Below are positions 12,453 to 22,400 of a stretch of DNA of 49,056 nucleotides, piece after piece. The notes beneath the pieces are model-generated. The model ran no database searches. It had not been told where the DNA came from and worked only from the letters and a program-made list of their open reading frames with translations. Within the stretch, counting starts at the first letter, position 1. Every line of letters starts with the position of its first letter. The DNA is taken from positions 1 to 49,056 of the forward strand of contig SBAX01000279.1 of assembly GCA_005240095.1 (NCBI GenBank), given 5' to 3'. A program made the position numbers and the translations under genes. This DNA comes from Phycisphaera mikurensis (GTDB lineage Bacteria; Planctomycetota; Phycisphaerae; UBA1845).

Positions 12453-14045
12453 ATGATCACTTTGTGCCTGGCGGGAATGACCGCTTCGATCCTGGGGTCC
12501 GACGTTCAGCTCAAGGTCGATCCCTTGATGGTCGTGTCCACGGGGGAAGTCTGGGACGTCATCGCCAAAGCGGACAACCCGGTATGGCCGGGATGGAACG
12601 CGGCGGACACGCCGATCCTGATCTATCTTCCCGGCGTGCAGGACGTGCTCATCAACCATCCCAGGCTGCCCGCCGACTTCACGGCCTATGACGGTCCGGT
12701 GAAGTCCCAGGCCGGTCCCATCTTCGTCCGCGACGGCAAGACCATCATCGACTTCGACGGGCAGAACACCTCGCGGGATGTTTTTGGCGTACAGACGCTG
12801 GTCATTGCCGACACACTCTCCAGCCGCAAGCAGGACGTGTCCTATCTGCTGTCCGATCCGCGCCCGGCCGACGAAAAAGCTCGCGAGCTAACCTACGACC
12901 GGCTGCGGCCGAATCCTTATGATCATCTCGCCCTCGTTGCCCACGAGGCCTTCCACGTCTTTCAGCACCGCAAGGCTCCCAACAAGGGCGGCAATGAGAT
13001 GGCCCTGGCCAAATACCCGGTTCTTTCTGTGGCCAACAACGTGGGCTTTGCCCTGGAGGGCGAGGCCCTGGCCGCGGCTCTCCGGGCGAAAACCAAGGAC
13101 GAGGCTCGAAACGCGGCGGTTCGCTGGCTTGCGATCCGCAAGGATCGGCGAAGAGAAATGCCCGCTGAGGCCATCGACTACGAGGACGGGACGGAGTTCA
13201 ATGAAGGTCTGGCAAAGTACGTCGAATACCGGTTGCTCCAAGTCTTGGAAGGCCGCACCCCGAATCCACAACTGTATCTGGCCCAGGGCTTTCGCGGCTT
13301 TCCCGACCTCTCCGCGGAACGAGAGCGGCTCATCGACCAAGCCGTCGCCAACCTCCGCGGCGAGGTCAACGTCAACAACGATCCCTACGGGGCGGCCCCG
13401 GCGCGGATGCGGATGTACTACTCCGGCATGGCCATCGCCGCGCTCCTGGATCGCCTGACCACCGGTTGGCACGAGCAGATCCTCCAGCCTTCGACGACCC
13501 TCACCGGCCTGGCGGAAAGCGCCATCAACGCGAGCGAGAACGACCTCACCGCGGCGCTGGCGCAGGCGAAATCAGGAACCGGTTACGAAGAACTCGTTCG
13601 CCGAAAAGAGCAGCTCGCGCAAGAGGGTCAGGGATTCGTGAGCCGCATCCTCGAGGAGATCGAGAAGAACCCGCACGGCGTGCTGGTGGTGGACTATTCG
13701 GCCCTGGGCAATCCGCGGGTGGGGCTGTCCTTTACGCCCTTCGGCATCCTCGCCGTGGATGACTCACGCACGATTTACCGGATGCTTCCGCTGACCGCTC
13801 AGATCGGCTCGGCCCGCATTTCGCAATCCGAGTCGCGTCCCGCCCTCGAGGACAAGAAATCCAAACAGCTTGTCTTCCCATTGACTGCCGACCCCACGTC
13901 GGCAATGGCGTCGATCGGCGAAGCGCTGGGCACGGCCGAGGCCCGGAAGTGGGACCCGCTCGAATTCCCCGGCGTCAAGCTCGAGGGCGTGCGTGGGACG
14001 ATCTGCTGGGACGGCCCGCGACTGGTGGTCCAGCTGAGCCGGTAG
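12453..14045 (+). CDS. Putative secreted gluzincin-type metallopeptidase (HExxH ... NEGLAxY), hypothetical
   Basis: HEAFH motif (LVAHEAFHVFQH) plus a downstream EFNEGLAKYVEY, typical of MA-clan peptidases. Short hydrophobic N-terminus. No closer family assignment is possible by eye. Confidence 0.55.
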   Translation: MITLCLAGMTASILGSDVQLKVDPLMVVSTGEVWDVIAKADNPVWPGWNAADTPILIYLPGVQDVLINHPRLPADFTAYDGPVKSQAGPIFVRDGKTIIDFDGQNTSRDVFGVQTLVIADTLSSRKQDVSYLLSDPRPADEKARELTYDRLRPNPYDHLALVAHEAFHVFQHRKAPNKGGNEMALAKYPVLSVANNVGFALEGEALAAALRAKTKDEARNAAVRWLAIRKDRRREMPAEAIDYEDGTEFNEGLAKYVEYRLLQVLEGRTPNPQLYLAQGFRGFPDLSAERERLIDQAVANLRGEVNVNNDPYGAAPARMRMYYSGMAIAALLDRLTTGWHEQILQPSTTLTGLAESAINASENDLTAALAQAKSGTGYEELVRRKEQLAQEGQGFVSRILEEIEKNPHGVLVVDYSALGNPRVGLSFTPFGILAVDDSRTIYRMLPLTAQIGSARISQSESRPALEDKKSKQLVFPLTADPTSAMASIGEALGTAEARKWDPLEFPGVKLEGVRGTICWDGPRLVVQLSR

Positions 14046-14197
14046 TCGGAGCGAGCTGTAGCCTTCGTCTGGTCAGTAGTCCGTGTGTCGGTTACGCGAC
14101 AACTACCCACCGCCTACGGCGTCTGACTAAGCCGAGAGAATATGGAAATAAAGCACTTTCAGTTCAAGACGTATTGACTAGAAGCCATACTAAGCGG

Positions 14198-14227
14198 TTG
14201 ACAGCGGGTTTTCCCTTAAGGTATAAC
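14198..14227 (+). promoter_or_regulatory. Near-consensus sigma70-type promoter of the small-peptide gene
   Basis: TTGACA (14198-14203), 18-nt spacer, TATAAC (14222-14227). Preceded by a markedly AT-rich stretch (14130-14197) in an otherwise GC-rich window. Confidence 0.6.
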
Positions 14228-14315
14228 CCTTCTTGGCCTCTTCGGATTCCGGTCGGGGGATCCAGGTAAGCCCGTCGTCGATCTGTCCAGGCCGCGCGTT
14301 GCGGCATGTCGTTTT

Positions 14316-14337
14316 CGATACACGCGGACGTGTATCG
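14316..14337 (+). promoter_or_regulatory. Perfect 9-bp hairpin / inverted repeat in the 5' leader of the peptide gene
   Basis: CGATACACG-CGGA-CGTGTATCG. Followed by the tandem 9-mer GAGAGGACA x2 (14345-14362) and the SD site AAGGAGG (14375-14381). Confidence 0.5.
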
Positions 14338-14387
14338 CGCATTGGAGAGGACAGAGAGGACACTTCTTTTCTCAAAGGAGGCGCAAG

Positions 14388-14576
14388 ATGGAGACTCCCC
14401 GGAAGGAAATCGAACTTCGCATTGAGGAGCTGGAAGAGCGCATCGCCCCCAGCACTTCGCCCGGCCTGCAAGGCTATGAAGGCCAGCCCGGCAATCAGGG
14501 CGGGCACGGCGGAAGCAACGGCACGCCGAACGGCCTGAAGGGATATGAAGGCCAACCGGGCAACCAGGGCGGCTGA
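14388..14576 (+). CDS. 62-aa precursor-like peptide: acidic helical leader + duplicated GYEGQPGNQGG core
   Basis: ATG preceded by AAAGGAGG at optimal spacing. Sequence METPRKEIELRIEELEERIAPSTSPGLQ-GYEGQPGNQGG-HGGSNGTPNGLK-GYEGQPGNQGG. The two 33-nt core copies differ at 5 positions, all synonymous. Confidence 0.8.
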   Translation: METPRKEIELRIEELEERIAPSTSPGLQGYEGQPGNQGGHGGSNGTPNGLKGYEGQPGNQGG

Positions 14577-14604
14577 TCGTCCAAGATGGGAAGGCGAGGG
14601 TCCT

Positions 14605-14649
14605 GCCGAGCCGCAGCGATCACGATAACAATCGGGCGCTCGGCTCGGC
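14605..14649 (+). terminator. GC-rich intercistronic hairpin (possible attenuator/partial terminator)
   Basis: 13-bp stem with one bulge, GCCGAGCCG(C)AGCG / CGCTCGGCTCGGC, and an 18-nt loop. It starts 29 nt after the peptide stop. A T-rich tract (TTTTGATTTCTTTTTCTTCTT) lies ~35 nt further on, so this is not a canonical terminator. Confidence 0.45.
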
Positions 14650-14716
14650 GGGAGCCCGCGTCCCTCCCATGCCATCGAAGGTTTTGATTTCTTTTTCTTC
14701 TTGAAGGTCCGCCACC

Positions 14717-17143
14717 GTGCGGCAAGACTGCCCCCAACTTCGCCGCGATCTCATCATCCGCCGGCAAGATCGCGCCGGTTCCGCGGGTTACGTGCTGAAG
14801 GACCCGCGCTCACAGCGATTCTTTCAATTCCGCGAGCCCGAAGGTTTCATCGCCGAACGCCTCGATGGCGCCACGCCCCTCGAGGACATCCGCGAGCGCA
14901 CCGCGCAGCGGTTCGGCGCAGCCCTTTCGGACGCCACGCTACGCGGCTTCCTGAATAACCTGCAGGGCCTCGGGCTGCTGGAGGATTCTGCGTCGGTGCC
15001 CGATCGTGCCCTGTCTGGCTCTCGCATTCGCGGAAGCCTCCTCTATCTCCGCTGGAAGGCCTTCGATCCCGATCGTCTGTTCGATGACTTGGCCCGCAGG
15101 TTCCGCTGGCTGTTCACGCCGGCGTTCGTGGCGCTTTCGGCCGCACTGATCATCGTGGCGCTAGGCGTTACTTTGGCAAACTACGGCTCGGTCGGGCGAC
15201 GTCTGCCCCAGCTTTATCGAACCGATATCTTCATTCTCGCGTGGACGGTGCTGCTAGCAGTCATCGTGCTTCATGAATTCGCCCACGGTCTGACCTGCAA
15301 GCACTTCGGCGGGCATGTGCACGAACTGGGATTCATGCTGATCTTTTTCCAGCCGGCCATGTACTGCAACGTCTCCGATGCCTGGCTCTTTCCCGAGCGC
15401 CGCAAGCGCCTCTGGGTCACCTTCGCCGGTGCCTACTTCGAGATGTTCCTCTGGTCCCTGGCCACGATGATGTGGTGGGTGACTGACCCCAATACGCTGC
15501 TGAACCTGTTTGCGCTTGTGGTCATGCTGACCTCGGGAATCAAGACGCTCTTCAACCTCAACCCGCTCATCAAGCTCGATGGGTACTACTTGCTCAGCGA
15601 CTGGTTGGACATCCCCAACCTCAATCGACGGGCAATTCGCTATGTTCGCACCGCAGTTGGCCGATGGATGGGTATGACCGAGGATCGCCTGCCCGAGGTC
15701 GAGCCGCGTCAGCGCCGCATTCTGGTCGCTTACGGTACGCTGGCGTGGACGTTTTCGGTCTGCTTTCTGGGCGCTTTGCTGTGGAGCGTGGGCGGCTTTC
15801 TGACCTCGCGCTATCAGGCCGCGGGCTTCCTGGCCACCACCGGCCTGCTCGTAGCCTTCTTCCGCCGACCACGGTTGACCAAGCCGCCGGCGGCGGATGG
15901 TCCGCTGGCACCGAGCGCGCGGCGGGTGCGAAACCCACGGCGGAAGGCGATCCTGGCGTTGCTGGCGCTGATCGGAGCAGCCCTCTTCTTCGTTCACGTC
16001 GAACTCACTGTCTCGGCCCCGTTCACCGCCCTTCCGATTCGCAACGCCGAAGTCCGTGCCGAGGTGGAGGGCATCATCGAAAAAGTTCTGGTCAATGAGG
16101 ATGATCGGGTCTCGCAGGGGCAGGAGATCGCTCAGCTCTCGGATCGGCATTGGCGCTCCGAGCTCGACAAGGTCAGCGCGGAGGTGGCCGCCACGGCCGC
16201 GCGGCTCAAGATGCTCCAGACGGGGCCGCGGCCGGAGGAGATCGAGCTCGCCCGCCGCGAGGTGGCCACCAGTAACGCGCGGTGGCAGCGGGCCCGCGAT
16301 CAGCTCGACACTCTCCTTCGCGTGCAGGGCGAACGCGTAGGCCGGACGCGCACGTCCGTCGAGAAGGCCGAGGCTCAGCTCCACGCTGCCCAGGTGGAGC
16401 TCTCCCGCGTTCAGCAACTGGTTACCGACGGGGCGGGCACTTCCAAAGAGCTGCACGATGCCGTATCGCTGGTTGCCCTGCGGGAGAAAGAACTGGCCGA
16501 GGCGCAGGCCGATGTGCGAGTCGTCTCCGCCGACGATCTGACGGAATATCGCGAGGCCGCAGTCGTGGCGGAGATGGAGCACAACGAGGCCCAGAGCCGC
16601 CTAGCCCTTCTGCTGGCGGGCTTCCGCCCGGAGCTGGTGGAGGCCGCCGCGGCCGAGCTCGGTCGCCTTGAGGCCCAGCGCGACTATTGCCTCCAGCAGA
16701 TTGATCGCCTGGTGATCATCAGCCCCATCGGCGGGGTGGTTGCGACGCCCAAGCTGTCGGAGACGGTCGGTCGGCGCGTGGACCGCGGAGACTTGATCGC
16801 CACGGTGCACGACGTGTCCCGCATTCGCGCCGAGATCGCCGTCCCGGAAAAGGAGATGGCGGACGTGGCCGTCGGTCAACCGGTGTACCTGAAGGTACGG
16901 GCGTTTCCCCACCGCGGCTTCGAGGGAACCATCCGCTCCATCGCCCCCATCGCCTCGCCGCGGGATGAGCTCATCGCCGGACGCGCCGTGCTGGTACACG
17001 CCGAGTTCAACAACCCCGAGCAATTGCTCAAGCCGGAGATGACCGGCTACTGCAAGATCCAATGCGGCCAGCGCCGCCTGCTCGACGTCCTCACTCGGCG
17101 CATCACGGGCTACGTCCGCGTCGAGTTCTGGTCCTGGTGGTAG
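14717..17143 (+). CDS. Tripartite fusion: PqqD/RRE-like N-terminal domain - M50 (site-2 protease) intramembrane metalloprotease - HlyD-family periplasmic adaptor
   Basis: GTG start is forced because an in-frame TGA lies 4 codons upstream. Residues 1-90 show a PqqD-like pattern. M50 motifs HEFAHGLTCKH and NLNPLIKLDGYY sit inside a multi-TM region. The C-terminal ~400 aa have a lipoyl-like fold, a long coiled coil and a beta-barrel typical of membrane fusion proteins (EVEGIIEKVLVNEDDRVSQGQEIAQL ... ISPIGGVV). Confidence 0.8.
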   Translation: MRQDCPQLRRDLIIRRQDRAGSAGYVLKDPRSQRFFQFREPEGFIAERLDGATPLEDIRERTAQRFGAALSDATLRGFLNNLQGLGLLEDSASVPDRALSGSRIRGSLLYLRWKAFDPDRLFDDLARRFRWLFTPAFVALSAALIIVALGVTLANYGSVGRRLPQLYRTDIFILAWTVLLAVIVLHEFAHGLTCKHFGGHVHELGFMLIFFQPAMYCNVSDAWLFPERRKRLWVTFAGAYFEMFLWSLATMMWWVTDPNTLLNLFALVVMLTSGIKTLFNLNPLIKLDGYYLLSDWLDIPNLNRRAIRYVRTAVGRWMGMTEDRLPEVEPRQRRILVAYGTLAWTFSVCFLGALLWSVGGFLTSRYQAAGFLATTGLLVAFFRRPRLTKPPAADGPLAPSARRVRNPRRKAILALLALIGAALFFVHVELTVSAPFTALPIRNAEVRAEVEGIIEKVLVNEDDRVSQGQEIAQLSDRHWRSELDKVSAEVAATAARLKMLQTGPRPEEIELARREVATSNARWQRARDQLDTLLRVQGERVGRTRTSVEKAEAQLHAAQVELSRVQQLVTDGAGTSKELHDAVSLVALREKELAEAQADVRVVSADDLTEYREAAVVAEMEHNEAQSRLALLLAGFRPELVEAAAAELGRLEAQRDYCLQQIDRLVIISPIGGVVATPKLSETVGRRVDRGDLIATVHDVSRIRAEIAVPEKEMADVAVGQPVYLKVRAFPHRGFEGTIRSIAPIASPRDELIAGRAVLVHAEFNNPEQLLKPEMTGYCKIQCGQRRLLDVLTRRITGYVRVEFWSWW

Positions 17144-21814: not shown

Positions 21815-21962
21815 CGGTGCGGCGAACGCGGTCCTCGTTGTCCTACATTTGTAGGGGTTTGGAACGCGGGGCGAGTTGCGGTATACTTCCCCTGAAGGCG
21901 CCTCCCGGCGTGCATGGAGGCATTTGAAACGACACTCCCTAGAAAACCAGGAGGGTTCATCC

Positions 21963-22400
21963 ATGGCGGACTCCACCAATGAATTCCCGACCACTCTCGG
22001 CGCGGATGCAGTGTTCAAGGGCCAGCTTTCCTTCGAGAAGGGCGTTCGGCTGCTGGGCAAGTTCGAAGGCGAGATCACCAGCGAGGGCCAGCTCGTCGTC
22101 GCCGATGGCGCGACGCTCACCGGCGACGTAAAGGCCGGCACCGTGCGCGTGGACGGTCAGCTTAAGGGTAACGTCAACGCCCACACCAAGGTGCAATTGT
22201 CGGCGTCGGCGCGCCTCGAGGGCGACTTGCAGACCCAGCGTCTGGAAGTGGCTGAAGGCGCGGTGCTGGTGGGCCGATGCGTGGTGGGGACGAATGGACA
22301 GGCCAAGCCGACGCTCGATGCCAAACCCGTATCACGTCCGGCGCAGTTCGTGACTCCTGCGAAGCCCGGCGAACCGGCCGCGGCGACGGTGAAGAAGTAG
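21963..22400 (+). CDS. Bactofilin-family cytoskeletal protein
   Basis: ATG at 21963 preceded by AGGAGG. Repetitive beta-helix pattern (GKFEGEITSEGQLVVADGATLTGDVKAGTVRVDGQLKGNVNAHTKVQL...LEGDLQTQRLEVAEGAVLVG) with a Pro/Ala-rich tail. Confidence 0.8.
   Translation: MADSTNEFPTTLGADAVFKGQLSFEKGVRLLGKFEGEITSEGQLVVADGATLTGDVKAGTVRVDGQLKGNVNAHTKVQLSASARLEGDLQTQRLEVAEGAVLVGRCVVGTNGQAKPTLDAKPVSRPAQFVTPAKPGEPAAATVKK

What the first reader, a model, noticed from the sequence alone, without database searches (positions are those of the whole stretch)
14388..14576. 62-aa precursor-like peptide with a duplicated GYEGQPGNQGG core under purifying selection
Sequence: METPRKEIELRIEELEERIAPSTSPGLQ|GYEGQPGNQGG|HGGSNGTPNGLK|GYEGQPGNQGG*. 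The two 11-codon copies (14472-14504 and 14541-14573) differ at 5 of 33 nt (ggc/gga, cag/caa, ccc/ccg, aat/aac, ggg/ggc). All five differences are synonymous, which argues that the amino-acid sequence, not the DNA, is conserved and that the ORF is really translated. The N-terminal 20 residues are strongly amphipathic and acidic (leader-like). The remainder is Gly/Gln/Asn/Pro-rich with exactly one Tyr-Glu pair per repeat and ends in Gly-Gly. There is no Cys, Ser-rich or Thr-rich core, so it does not look like a lanthipeptide, thiopeptide or sactipeptide substrate. The invariant Y-E pairs next to a PqqD-like domain recall Glu/Tyr-derived cofactor precursors, but no radical-SAM gene is present. 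That link is only an idea.
Basis: seen in the sequence. Interest (0 to 1): 0.8.

Follow-up and report, generated by a model that had tools for sequence, protein, structure and literature searches.

The report
Conserved secreted glycine-rich peptide with leader
This small gene is real: it encodes a leader-tagged peptide, probably cut and exported by the protease-adaptor fusion protein encoded next to it, and the same peptide is conserved almost letter for letter in bacteria of more than ten phyla, yet its function is unknown.

Summary
ORF 14388-14576(+) has a good Shine-Dalgarno site. Its two GYEGQPGNQGG copies differ at 5 of 33 nt, all synonymous.

The peptide belongs to a large unnamed family: at least 1200 clusters at 90% identity, and 46 genome loci in more than ten phyla. 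The 11-mer is nearly invariant although synonymous sites are saturated (dN/dS about 0.02).

The N-terminus (IEELEERIAP) resembles the published daptide leader motif ELExMEAP. The next gene (14717-17143) is a three-part fusion:
- a leader-binding RRE domain
- an M50 site-2 protease related to the daptide leader peptidase
- a HlyD/EmrA-type periplasmic adaptor

This gene follows the leader-type peptide in 23 of 27 loci. It never accompanies homologues in which the same core carries a Sec signal peptide (0 of 12). Other homologues carry a double-glycine leader.

All three leader types predict the same mature N-terminus. I therefore infer that the leader is removed after IAP, releasing a hydrophilic peptide of 41 aa (about 3.9 kDa).

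No modifying enzyme is conserved beside the gene. The window has no radical-SAM or pqq genes, so the PQQ-like cofactor idea is not supported. The peptide's extracellular role is unknown. I rate it a new variant of a known kind.

The parts
14374..14381 (+). Shine-Dalgarno sequence AAAGGAGG, 6 nt upstream of the ATG
   Evidence: Read directly from the sequence.
14388..14450 (+). Leader region, 21 codons: METPRKEIELRIEELEERIAP. It holds an alternating hydrophobic stretch (I-x-L-x-I) followed by EELEERIAP.
   Evidence: The motif is conserved in 26 of 27 leader-type homologues selected by their core alone. It resembles the daptide leader motif ELExMEAP. The C-terminal boundary after IAP is inferred from Sec-type and double-glycine-type homologues.
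14451..14573 (+). Predicted mature peptide, 41 aa: STSPGLQGYEGQPGNQGGHGGSNGTPNGLKGYEGQPGNQGG. Calculated values: 3896.73 Da monoisotopic, pI 5.4, GRAVY -1.39, 15 Gly.
   Evidence: The boundary is inferred, not measured.
14472..14504 (+). Core copy 1, GYEGQPGNQGG. The DNA-level repeat extends over 14452-14503.
14541..14573 (+). Core copy 2, GYEGQPGNQGG. The DNA-level repeat extends over 14521-14572. Stop codon TGA at 14574-14576.
14582..14670 (+). Long G+C-rich hairpin immediately after the stop codon, followed by a T-rich tract at 14680-14702. Candidate partial terminator or transcript stabiliser between the precursor gene and the processing gene.
   Evidence: RNA fold of 14574-14720: -67.8 kcal/mol, z = -3.8, with 0 of 200 shuffles folding as well. 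Inverted repeat I1. Stable hairpins sit at the same position in most other loci, with z below -3.5 in 13 of the 20 intergenic regions folded. The simple terminator scan did not call it. Its function is inferred.
14717..17143 (+). 808-aa fusion protein. It comprises an N-terminal RRE (about aa 7-88), an M50 site-2-type intramembrane metalloprotease (about aa 118-382), a transmembrane anchor (aa 407-425) and a HlyD/EmrA-type periplasmic adaptor with a long alpha-hairpin (aa 426-808).
   Evidence: Pfam and NCBIfam hits. AF2 model with mean pLDDT 79.7. Foldseek matches to EmrA, MacA and MexA. The isolated N-domain best matches the lasso-peptide RREs TbiB1 and TfuB1. It follows the peptide gene in 23 of 27 leader-type loci.
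15272..15286 (+). Codons for the HEFAH zinc-binding and catalytic motif (H186, E187, H190). The second M50 motif, NLNPLIKLDG (N280...D288 G289), lies about 280 nt downstream.
   Evidence: Both motifs are invariant in an alignment of 34 homologues.

Best explanation
A two-gene cassette makes and secretes a small, apparently unmodified peptide.

1. The 62-aa product is a pre-peptide.
2. Its 21-residue acidic leader (…IELRIEELEERIAP) is bound in the cytoplasm by the RRE domain at the N-terminus of the downstream 808-aa protein.
3. The M50 site-2-type intramembrane metalloprotease domain of that same protein cuts the leader off directly after IAP.
4. Its C-terminal HlyD/EmrA-like adaptor domain, which has a long alpha-hairpin, couples release to passage across the periplasm. 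The partners (an outer-membrane channel and possibly a transporter) are encoded elsewhere.
5. The product is a 41-aa, about 3.9-kDa, very hydrophilic and mildly acidic peptide rich in Gly, Gln, Asn and Pro. It carries two copies of the invariant module G-L-x-G-Y-E-G-Q-P-G-N-Q-G-G.
6. The modules act outside the cell as independent units that recognise some conserved partner or ligand. That role is not known.
7. A hairpin after the peptide gene probably raises precursor transcript levels relative to the processing gene.

Shown: the gene is real and conserved; the leader motif, the domain content of the partner and their linkage.

Inferred: leader binding, the cleavage site, the export route and the absence of modification.
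For: Family and selection:
- At least 1200 homologous clusters, all 'hypothetical'.
- 195 clusters at 50% identity in an exhaustive profile search, nearly all 35-125 aa.
- 46 genome loci in Acidobacteriota, Planctomycetota, Verrucomicrobiota, Bacteroidota, Chloroflexota, Actinomycetota, Nitrospirota, Gemmatimonadota, Methylomirabilota, Beta- and Deltaproteobacteria and Eisenbacteria.
- Core dN/dS about 0.02 with pS 0.69.

Leader and partner:
- ELEERIAP resembles the daptide leader motif ELExMEAP. Daptide leaders are removed by an RRE-fused intramembrane site-2 protease.
- The window's protein matches NF041824 daptide_HExxH over its full length (E 7e-64), and also matches HlyD and RND-adaptor models.
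- HExxH and NxxPxxxxDG are invariant in 34 homologues.
- The modelled N-domain is beta-beta-beta-alpha-alpha-alpha. Its best PDB matches are leader-bound lasso RREs: TbiB1 with TM 0.74-0.78 and rmsd 2.1-2.8 A, and TfuB1.
- The C-terminal half matches EmrA, MacA and MexA.

Linkage:
- The fusion gene lies just downstream on the same strand in 23 of 27 leader-type loci and in 0 of 12 Sec-type loci (Fisher p = 5e-7).
- The closest relatives (fusion protein 74% and 62% identical) share only these two genes with the window.

Exported product and cleavage site. The same core sits behind three kinds of leader:
- Sec signal peptides: ALA|SQPPGLLGYEG and AFA|DQPPGLLGYEG…GGPQHHP.
- Double-glycine leaders: VRGG|SNPPGLLGYEG and VRGG|KVPPGQKGYEG.
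- The IAP leader: IAP|SQPPGLLGYEG and IAP|DQPPGLLGYEG…GGPQHHP.
All three predict the same mature N-terminus.

No modification in this subtype:
- No conserved neighbouring enzyme.
- No radical-SAM motif in the window.

Hairpin.
Against: - Nothing here is experimental. Leader binding, cleavage after IAP and export are all inferred.
- No ABC, MFS or RND transporter or TolC-like gene lies next to the cassette in the window. The only ABC genes, at 34.6-38.1 kb, form a sugar-importer-type operon. ABC exporters are adjacent in only 3 of about 45 loci. The energy source and outer-membrane partner are therefore unknown.
- The NF041824 score (216 bits) is below its curated cutoff of 300.
- Four leader-type loci lack the fusion gene within the DNA held.
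- In 10 loci of the short-linker subtype a 2OG-Fe(II) oxygenase sits beside the cassette. At least some family members are therefore probably modified, and an unlinked modifier cannot be excluded for this one.
- The extracellular function is unassigned.
Confidence: 0.62

Rival explanations
1. It is a true RiPP precursor. Each GYEGQPGNQGG module is recognised through its own invariant sequence by a modifying enzyme encoded elsewhere. Candidate modifications are Pro, Asn or Tyr hydroxylation, Tyr sulfation or oxidation, or a cross-link. The active product is a modified peptide or an excised small fragment. The first reader's Tyr/Glu-derived cofactor idea is the extreme form of this reading. I give that extreme form about 0.03.
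For: - Cross-phylum invariance of a core, with 1 to 3 copies per precursor and variable linkers. This is what precursors of one fixed product look like; PqqA, MftA and multi-core RiPP precursors are examples from established knowledge.
- A PF13759/TIGR02466 2OG-Fe(II) oxygenase is adjacent in 10 loci, all of the short-linker subtype. It weakly resembles the prolyl-hydroxylase family PF13640. Q-P-G is an X-Pro-Gly site.
- The leader, RRE and protease module is borrowed from a genuine RiPP class.
Against: - No modifying enzyme is conserved next to the long-linker subtype to which the window belongs. The oxygenase is absent from the 49-kb window.
- There is no radical-SAM motif and there are no pqq-like genes.
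- Sec-type and double-glycine-type homologues have no RRE partner and no conserved neighbour at all. Cofactor and RiPP pathways are normally clustered.
Confidence: 0.22
2. It is a microcin-like or bacteriocin-like toxin, exported by a dedicated leader-cleaving system to kill competitors.
For: - The architecture matches a leader peptide followed by a processing and export gene. The structural gene is small, is followed by a hairpin, and some loci hold several precursors.
- The relatives that use this protease type include an antimicrobial daptide.
- A HlyD-type adaptor is present, as in colicin V export (established knowledge).
Against: - No immunity gene is conserved.
- The peptide is strongly hydrophilic and slightly acidic, with no amphipathic or hydrophobic segment (GRAVY -1.39).
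- The core is invariant across more than ten phyla, whereas bacteriocin cores usually diversify.
- Stand-alone Sec-type copies occur without any accessory gene.
Confidence: 0.08
3. It is a spurious ORF in G+C-rich DNA, or the functional element is the DNA/RNA repeat or the antisense ORF 14190-14675(-).
For: High-GC DNA yields many chance ORFs. A 161-aa antisense ORF overlaps the locus.
Against: - Variation among 84 core copies is almost entirely at third positions of the + frame.
- The family has over a thousand members with intact frames, start codons and three kinds of secretion leader.
- No Rfam family matches.
- Antisense 'homologues' appear only as mirrors of the peptide gene (clusters c3, c7 and c17).
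Confidence: 0.01

Closest known systems
Daptides (MpaA/DapA precursors with the RRE-fused intramembrane site-2 protease MpaP/DapP)
   Same: - An acidic leader with a near-identical motif: ELExMEAP in daptides, ELEERIAP here.
- A leader peptidase built from an N-terminal RRE and an M50 membrane protease. The window's protein aligns end to end with the NCBIfam daptide protease model at E 7e-64.
- Several precursors per locus in some relatives.
   Different: - The score is below the equivalog cutoff (216 against 300 bits).
- The core is Gly/Gln/Asn/Pro-rich rather than aliphatic, and has no C-terminal Thr.
- No DapB, DapC, DapD or DapM enzymes are present.
- The protease carries an extra periplasmic adaptor of about 400 aa.
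- The hosts are mostly diderm soil phyla rather than Actinomycetota and Bacillota.
Class II microcins and double-glycine-leader peptides, exported by a peptidase-containing ABC transporter with a HlyD-family adaptor (e.g. CvaAB-TolC)
   Same: - An N-terminal leader is removed by the export machinery itself.
- A HlyD-type adaptor is present.
- The structural gene is small.
- Some homologues of this very peptide carry canonical double-glycine leaders.
   Different: In the window the protease is an M50 metalloprotease fused to the adaptor, not a C39 domain on an ABC transporter. The window's peptide has no double-glycine leader. No transporter is adjacent.
YydF/YydH-type epipeptides (YydH/LiaK M50 maturation protease)
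   Same: A membrane M50 protease dedicated to maturing a small ribosomal peptide. The window's protein gives a weak hit to NF058609 (E 2.5e-11). JGI names many homologues 'putative peptide zinc metalloprotease protein'.
   Different: There is no radical-SAM epimerase. The peptide is unrelated, and the RRE and adaptor domains are additional.
PQQ pathway (PqqA precursor, PqqD chaperone, PqqE radical-SAM enzyme)
   Same: A small precursor containing Tyr and Glu. The neighbour's N-domain has the PqqD/RRE fold.
   Different: Tyr and Glu are adjacent rather than in an E-x3-Y arrangement. No PqqB, PqqC or PqqE is present. The RRE is part of a protease-exporter. The peptide is secreted, and Sec-type homologues need no RRE.
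Lasso-peptide B1 proteins (TbiB1, TfuB1), stand-alone RREs
   Same: These are the best structural matches to the N-domain. In their crystal structures they bind a leader peptide.
   Different: Only the leader-binding domain is shared. No lasso cyclase or B2 protease is present.
Bacterial collagen-like (Gly-X-Y) proteins
   Same: Each module is a run of 4 to 6 Gly-X-Y triplets (GLQ GYE GQP GNQ GG…). There are weak hits to the Pfam Collagen model and to collagen tails in the PDB.
   Different: The hits are below threshold (13 bits against a cutoff of 27.2). The runs are too short for a stable triple helix. The register breaks between modules, and the short-linker period is 14 residues.

Membership tests
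Daptide RiPP class | Precursor leader with the conserved ELExMEAP-type motif | tested here: met
   The window has ELEERIAP, and the motif is conserved across leader-type homologues.
Daptide RiPP class | RRE-fused intramembrane site-2 metalloprotease (NCBIfam NF041824 equivalog) | tested here: inconclusive
   Full-length alignment at E 7e-64, but 216 bits is below the curated cutoff of 300. The architecture of RRE plus M50 is confirmed, with an additional adaptor domain.
Daptide RiPP class | Invariant C-terminal Thr that is converted to an amine | tested here: not met
   The peptide ends …NQGG. Homologues end in GG, GGH, GNHNP and similar tails.
Daptide RiPP class | DapB/DapC oxidative decarboxylase, DapD aminotransferase and DapM methyltransferase in the cluster | tested here: not met
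   None of these is next to the gene in the window. None is conserved in 46 loci.
PQQ-type cofactor precursor | Radical-SAM PqqE and PqqB/PqqC encoded with the precursor, and an E-x3-Y motif | tested here: not met
   No CxxxCxxC motif in any ORF of 120 aa or more. The Pfam map of the window has no pqq genes. Y and E are adjacent.
RiPP recognition element (PqqD-like fold) | Three-stranded sheet plus three helices, similar to known leader-binding RREs | tested here: met
   The AF2 models show beta-beta-beta-alpha-alpha-alpha over residues 13-85. The top Foldseek hits are TbiB1, TfuB1, CteB and SuiB, with TM up to 0.78. The Pfam PqqD hit is below cutoff. Leader binding itself was not testable.
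Peptidase family M50 (site-2 protease) | HExxH in one transmembrane helix and NxxPxxxxDG in another | tested here: met
   H186, E187, H190, N280, P283, D288 and G289 are invariant in 34 homologues. PF02163 scores 28.7 bits against a cutoff of 27.2. Transmembrane segments are shown.
HlyD / membrane-fusion (periplasmic adaptor) family | Barrel-sandwich, long alpha-hairpin and beta-barrel domains after a single membrane anchor | tested here: met
   PF16576 and PF13437 hits, and TIGR01730 above its cutoff. Structural matches to EmrA, MacA and MexA at E down to 4e-19. Docking to an outer-membrane channel was not testable.
Double-glycine-leader peptides (PCAT substrates) | LSxxELxxIxGG-type leader and a C39-peptidase ABC transporter | tested here: not met
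   The window's peptide lacks such a leader and the window has no such transporter. A few homologues do carry this leader: P0262, P0290, P0330, P0331 and P0341.
RiPP in the strict sense (post-translationally modified) | At least one enzymatic modification of the core besides leader removal | not testable with these tools
   No conserved modifying enzyme accompanies this subtype. A 2OG-Fe(II) oxygenase is adjacent only in the short-linker subtype. Mass spectrometry is needed.
Collagen triple-helix repeat (PF01391) | A long uninterrupted Gly-X-Y run that reaches the Pfam gathering score | tested here: not met
   13.1 bits against a cutoff of 27.2. The runs hold only 4 to 6 triplets.

The most novel reading that the evidence does not exclude
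Two linked claims.

First, the ELEERIAP leader and the RRE, site-2-protease and adaptor fusion together form a previously unrecognised, widespread and dedicated peptide-secretion route of diderm bacteria. The fusion protein has thousands of homologues. The leader heads at least seven different Asn/Pro/Gly-rich core families.

Second, the GYEGQPGNQGG peptide is a pan-phylum extracellular effector with one fixed sequence. It could be, for example, a ligand for a metal, mineral or polymer, or an interspecies signal. Evolution has grafted it independently onto Sec, double-glycine and ELEERIAP leaders because only the secreted core matters.
Probability: 0.35. Interest if true: 0.8.

Novelty: new variant of a known kind. 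Interest (0 to 1): 0.64.

Why it matters
Secreted bacterial peptides usually diversify quickly. An 11-residue module kept almost unchanged in more than ten phyla, and moved between three kinds of secretion leader, implies a conserved extracellular target or chemistry that nobody has named.

The partner protein joins leader recognition, intramembrane cleavage and a periplasmic adaptor in one chain. It would extend the daptide-type leader peptidase into a secretion device of Gram-negative-type cells. It would also give genome miners a simple handle, the ELEERIAP leader next to this fusion, for a large set of unannotated small genes. Current annotation calls the peptide 'hypothetical' and the partner a 'multidrug efflux' adaptor.

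The cassette has only two genes, so it is easy to test by heterologous expression.

Tried and rejected
- **Curated families.** Pfam and NCBIfam give no family for the window's peptide, for six other leader-type cores, or for Sec-type and double-glycine-type homologues. There is no Rfam match in 13800-15000.
- **Literature.** 'GYEGQPGNQGG' gives 0 papers. 'LEERIAP' gives only chance word matches. The combinations M50+HlyD+RRE+RiPP and 'peptidase M50'+HlyD+precursor give 0 papers. The TMcin preprint concerns an unrelated site-2-like protease. PF13759 papers were uninformative.
- **Daptide cleavage site.** I could not find where daptide leaders are cut relative to ELExMEAP in the text or supplements held. 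The IAP| cleavage site therefore rests on my comparison of leader types.
- **Solved structures and plasmids.** A PDB sequence search with the mature peptide gave only weak collagen-like hits. A plasmid tblastn gave no match, though the low-complexity filter may contribute.
- **Export partners.** No ABC exporter or TolC-like gene is near the cassette in the window.
- **Flanking genes.** The upstream 530-aa HEAFH protein and the downstream HD-GYP/HDOD protein are not conserved beside the cassette in close relatives, so I do not count them as parts.
- **Leader pN/pS.** My anchoring pattern put sequences out of register, so that number is discarded.
- **Large proteins with a similar N-terminus.** From memory, large Planctomycetota proteins carry a LExRxLLS-like N-terminus that might use the same route. 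None turned up in the fetched loci, so this stays untested.
- **Contigs of variant-leader members.** The contigs holding double-glycine-type and LEGRRLLS-type members were too short to be informative.
Full report
**1. The observation**

Its ATG is the first start codon in that frame after a stop. AAAGGAGG precedes it at a spacing of 6 nt. The two 33-nt copies at 14472-14504 and 14541-14573 both encode GYEGQPGNQGG. They differ at five third-codon positions, all synonymous. Only about 23% of the sites in these codons are synonymous, so the chance of that pattern is about 7e-4 (my calculation). The DNA repeat is in fact 52 nt long at 81% identity, so the repeated unit also includes the preceding P/N-G-L-x.

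**2. The gene is real and the family is large**

- A word-seeded search of 5.8 billion proteins returned 1200 homologues (E ≤ 10). All are short and all are 'hypothetical'.
- An exhaustive profile search of 1.84 billion representatives found 195 clusters at 50% identity. Almost all are 35-125 aa.
- A scan of one genome per species found 46 loci. They lie in Acidobacteriota, Planctomycetota, Verrucomicrobiota, Bacteroidota, Chloroflexota, Actinomycetota, Nitrospirota, Gemmatimonadota, Methylomirabilota, Beta- and Deltaproteobacteria and Eisenbacteria. All are metagenome-assembled genomes, and several record titles point to soil depth samples or groundwater.
- Of 84 core copies in the fetched DNA, 59 are GYEGQPGNQGG and 16 are GYEGQPGNQGN. 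Only nine carry another substitution.
- Synonymous sites are near saturation: pS 0.69, pN 0.038, dN/dS about 0.02. This estimate is partly conditioned on the search pattern.
- Members carry one, two (the majority) or three cores, joined by linkers of very different length. The modules therefore look like independent units rather than parts of one fold.
- No Pfam or NCBIfam model covers the peptide, and I found no paper on it.

**3. The neighbour**

The next gene (14717-17143, 808 aa) is a three-part fusion.

- *Residues 27-379* align end to end with NCBIfam NF041824, 'daptide biosynthesis intramembrane metalloprotease'. The E-value is 7e-64, but 216 bits is below the equivalog cutoff of 300. 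The C-terminal half matches HlyD and RND-adaptor models.
- *Catalytic motifs.* HExxH (H186, E187, H190) and NxxPxxxxDG (N280…G289) are invariant in 34 homologues.
- *AF2 model* (mean pLDDT 79.7). It shows a beta-beta-beta-alpha-alpha-alpha domain at residues 13-85, a helical membrane core, a single anchor helix at 407-425, and an adaptor with a very long alpha-hairpin.
- *Fold comparisons.* The C-terminal half matches EmrA, MacA and MexA. The N-domain modelled alone best matches the lasso-peptide RREs TbiB1 and TfuB1 in their leader-bound crystal structures (TM 0.74-0.78, rmsd 2.1-2.8 A). The RRE domains of CteB and SuiB come next.
- *Abundance.* More than 3000 proteins share this architecture at E ≤ 1e-20. 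They are annotated 'putative peptide zinc metalloprotease protein' or 'multidrug efflux' adaptor.

**4. The leader and its link to the neighbour**

The daptide papers report that daptide precursors carry a conserved N-terminal ELExMEAP motif. They also assign leader removal to an RRE-fused intramembrane site-2 protease, although this role is proposed, not shown. The window's leader reads …IELRIEELEERIAP. Among homologues picked by their core alone, 26 of 27 leader-type sequences keep LE(E/Q/L)(R/K)IAP, preceded by an alternating hydrophobic pattern.

| Peptide type | Loci | Fusion gene just downstream, same strand |
|---|---|---|
| IAP leader | 27 | 23 |
| Sec signal peptide | 12 | 0 |

Fisher's exact test gives p = 5e-7. 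The closest relatives of the window's fusion protein (74% and 62% identity) share only the peptide gene and the fusion gene with the window. All flanking genes differ. The unit is therefore a two-gene cassette.

The same leader also heads at least six other Asn/Pro/Gly-rich core families. Some loci hold up to six precursors next to the same fusion gene.

**5. The core is a secreted product and the leader is only a handle**

The same core is found behind three kinds of secretion leader.

| Leader type | Where found | Junction with the core |
|---|---|---|
| Sec signal peptide | Actinomycetota, Anaerolineae | …PALA\|SQPPGLLGYEG… ; …AAFA\|DQPPGLLGYEG…GGPQHHP |
| Double-glycine leader | a few metagenomic members | …ELKEVRGG\|KVPPGQKGYEG… ; …SENVRGG\|SNPPGLLGYEG… |
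| IAP leader | mostly diderm phyla | …IAP\|SQPPGLLGYEG… ; …IAP\|DQPPGLLGYEG…GGPQHHP |

All three leader types place the mature N-terminus six or seven residues before GYEG. I therefore infer that the M50 domain cuts directly after IAP.

For the window this gives a 41-aa product, STSPGLQ…NQGG. Its calculated properties are 3896.73 Da monoisotopic, pI 5.4, GRAVY -1.39 and 15 Gly.

Sec-type copies have no conserved neighbour at all. Whatever the peptide does, it does not depend on leader-guided chemistry.

**6. Other features**

A strong hairpin at 14582-14670 (-67.8 kcal/mol, z = -3.8), followed by a T-rich tract, separates the two genes. Comparable hairpins follow the peptide gene in most other loci. 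This fits the common arrangement in which a structural peptide gene is transcribed in excess of its processing gene. That reading is an inference.

In ten loci a PF13759/TIGR02466 2OG-Fe(II) oxygenase sits beside the cassette. All ten have the short linker …NQGNG(L/Q)xGYEG…. The window belongs to the long-linker subtype and has no such gene anywhere in its 49 kb.

**7. Mechanism and rivals**

My best reading (confidence about 0.6) has four steps:
1. The RRE binds the leader.
2. The M50 domain cleaves after IAP.
3. The fused adaptor hands the peptide to unlinked outer-membrane or transporter partners.
4. A hydrophilic two-module peptide is released and acts outside the cell.

Weak points:
- No transporter or TolC gene lies nearby.
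- The match to the daptide protease model is below its cutoff.
- There is no experimental evidence.

Rivals:
- *A modified RiPP or fixed small product made by an unlinked, core-recognising enzyme (about 0.2).* The invariance of the core and the oxygenase in a sister subtype keep this alive. The PQQ-like form of the idea is unlikely: the window has no radical-SAM motif and no pqq genes, and the peptide is secreted.
- *A bacteriocin (about 0.08).* This fits the architecture. It does not fit the lack of an immunity gene, the hydrophilic acidic sequence or the invariance across phyla.
- *A spurious ORF.* This is excluded.

**8. Comparison with known systems, and novelty**

The cassette works like a daptide or microcin maturation-export module, but it is not a daptide. 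The C-terminal Thr, the DapBCDM enzymes and the aliphatic core were all tested and not met. It is not a PQQ-type precursor, not a collagen-like protein (13 bits against a cutoff of 27) and, in this window, not a double-glycine peptide.

Three things appear to be undescribed in the libraries and literature I could search:
- the GYEGQPGNQGG peptide family
- the fusion of RRE, M50 protease and adaptor as a unit
- the swapping of leaders on one invariant core

I rate it a new variant of a known kind, with interest about 0.64. The gene is real, the family is abundant and strikingly conserved, and the cassette is easy to test. Its function remains open.

Noticed in passing
L016:400-1450, L046:600-2800, L051:3100-3800, L004:9073-9603(-), L048:6150-6600: The same IEELEERIAP leader heads at least six other Asn/Pro/Gly-rich core families, for example SNANFPPGQFPSGNPAHAPGNSNPNE, GNPGNNNPPLNNTNNPGNEGTGG, GFGPSNNGNPGNEVSNG and TTVGALHNNPDNPNNNNDHNAVP. 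Up to six precursors lie beside one RRE-M50-adaptor gene. None has a Pfam or NCBIfam family.
   Followed up: partly
L009:10291-11004, L019:3883-4554(-), L029:12494-13204, L048:6604-7323 and six more loci: A 2OG-Fe(II) oxygenase of about 230 aa (PF13759/TIGR02466, with weak similarity to the prolyl-hydroxylase family PF13640) sits next to the cassette in 10 loci. All 10 are of the short-linker subtype (…NQGNGLxGYEG…). It is absent from the window. It is a candidate hydroxylase of the Q-P-G or Asn sites.
   Followed up: partly
P0262, P0290, P0330, P0331, P0341; P0353; P0001, P0064, P0246, P0339 (metagenome proteins): The invariant core also occurs behind classical double-glycine leaders (…ELKEVRGG|). 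It also occurs behind LE(G/E)R(R)LLS/LEERLSLS variants of the leader. One member (P0353) adds a PEP-CTERM-like C-terminus, VPEPGSLALLGVGALGLMSRRRRRA. Their contigs were too short to show partners.
   Followed up: partly
window:12453-14045(+): A 530-aa protein with a signal-peptide-like N-terminus and a HEAFH (HExxH) motif has no Pfam or NCBIfam hit. It lies directly upstream of the peptide gene but is not conserved there in close relatives.
   Followed up: partly
window:17413-19536(+): A 707-aa signalling protein with an HD-GYP-type HD domain and an HDOD domain lies directly downstream of the cassette. It is not conserved there in relatives.
   Followed up: no
window:39673-41115(+): This gene encodes a PF07995 glucose/sorbosone dehydrogenase family protein. 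By my recollection this family includes PQQ-dependent soluble dehydrogenases. It lies 25 kb from the peptide, and the window has no pqq biosynthesis genes.
   Followed up: no
window:700-2382(-) and window:44056-45672(+): Two paralogous FHA-domain SpoIIE/PP2C-type phosphatases are present, the second with a GAF domain. A bactofilin gene lies at 21876-22400.
   Followed up: no
window:14190-14675(-): A 161-aa antisense ORF overlaps the peptide gene and the hairpin. Similar antisense ORFs 'cluster' across loci only because they mirror the conserved peptide gene (clusters c3, c7 and c17). It is an artefact, not a gene.
   Followed up: yes
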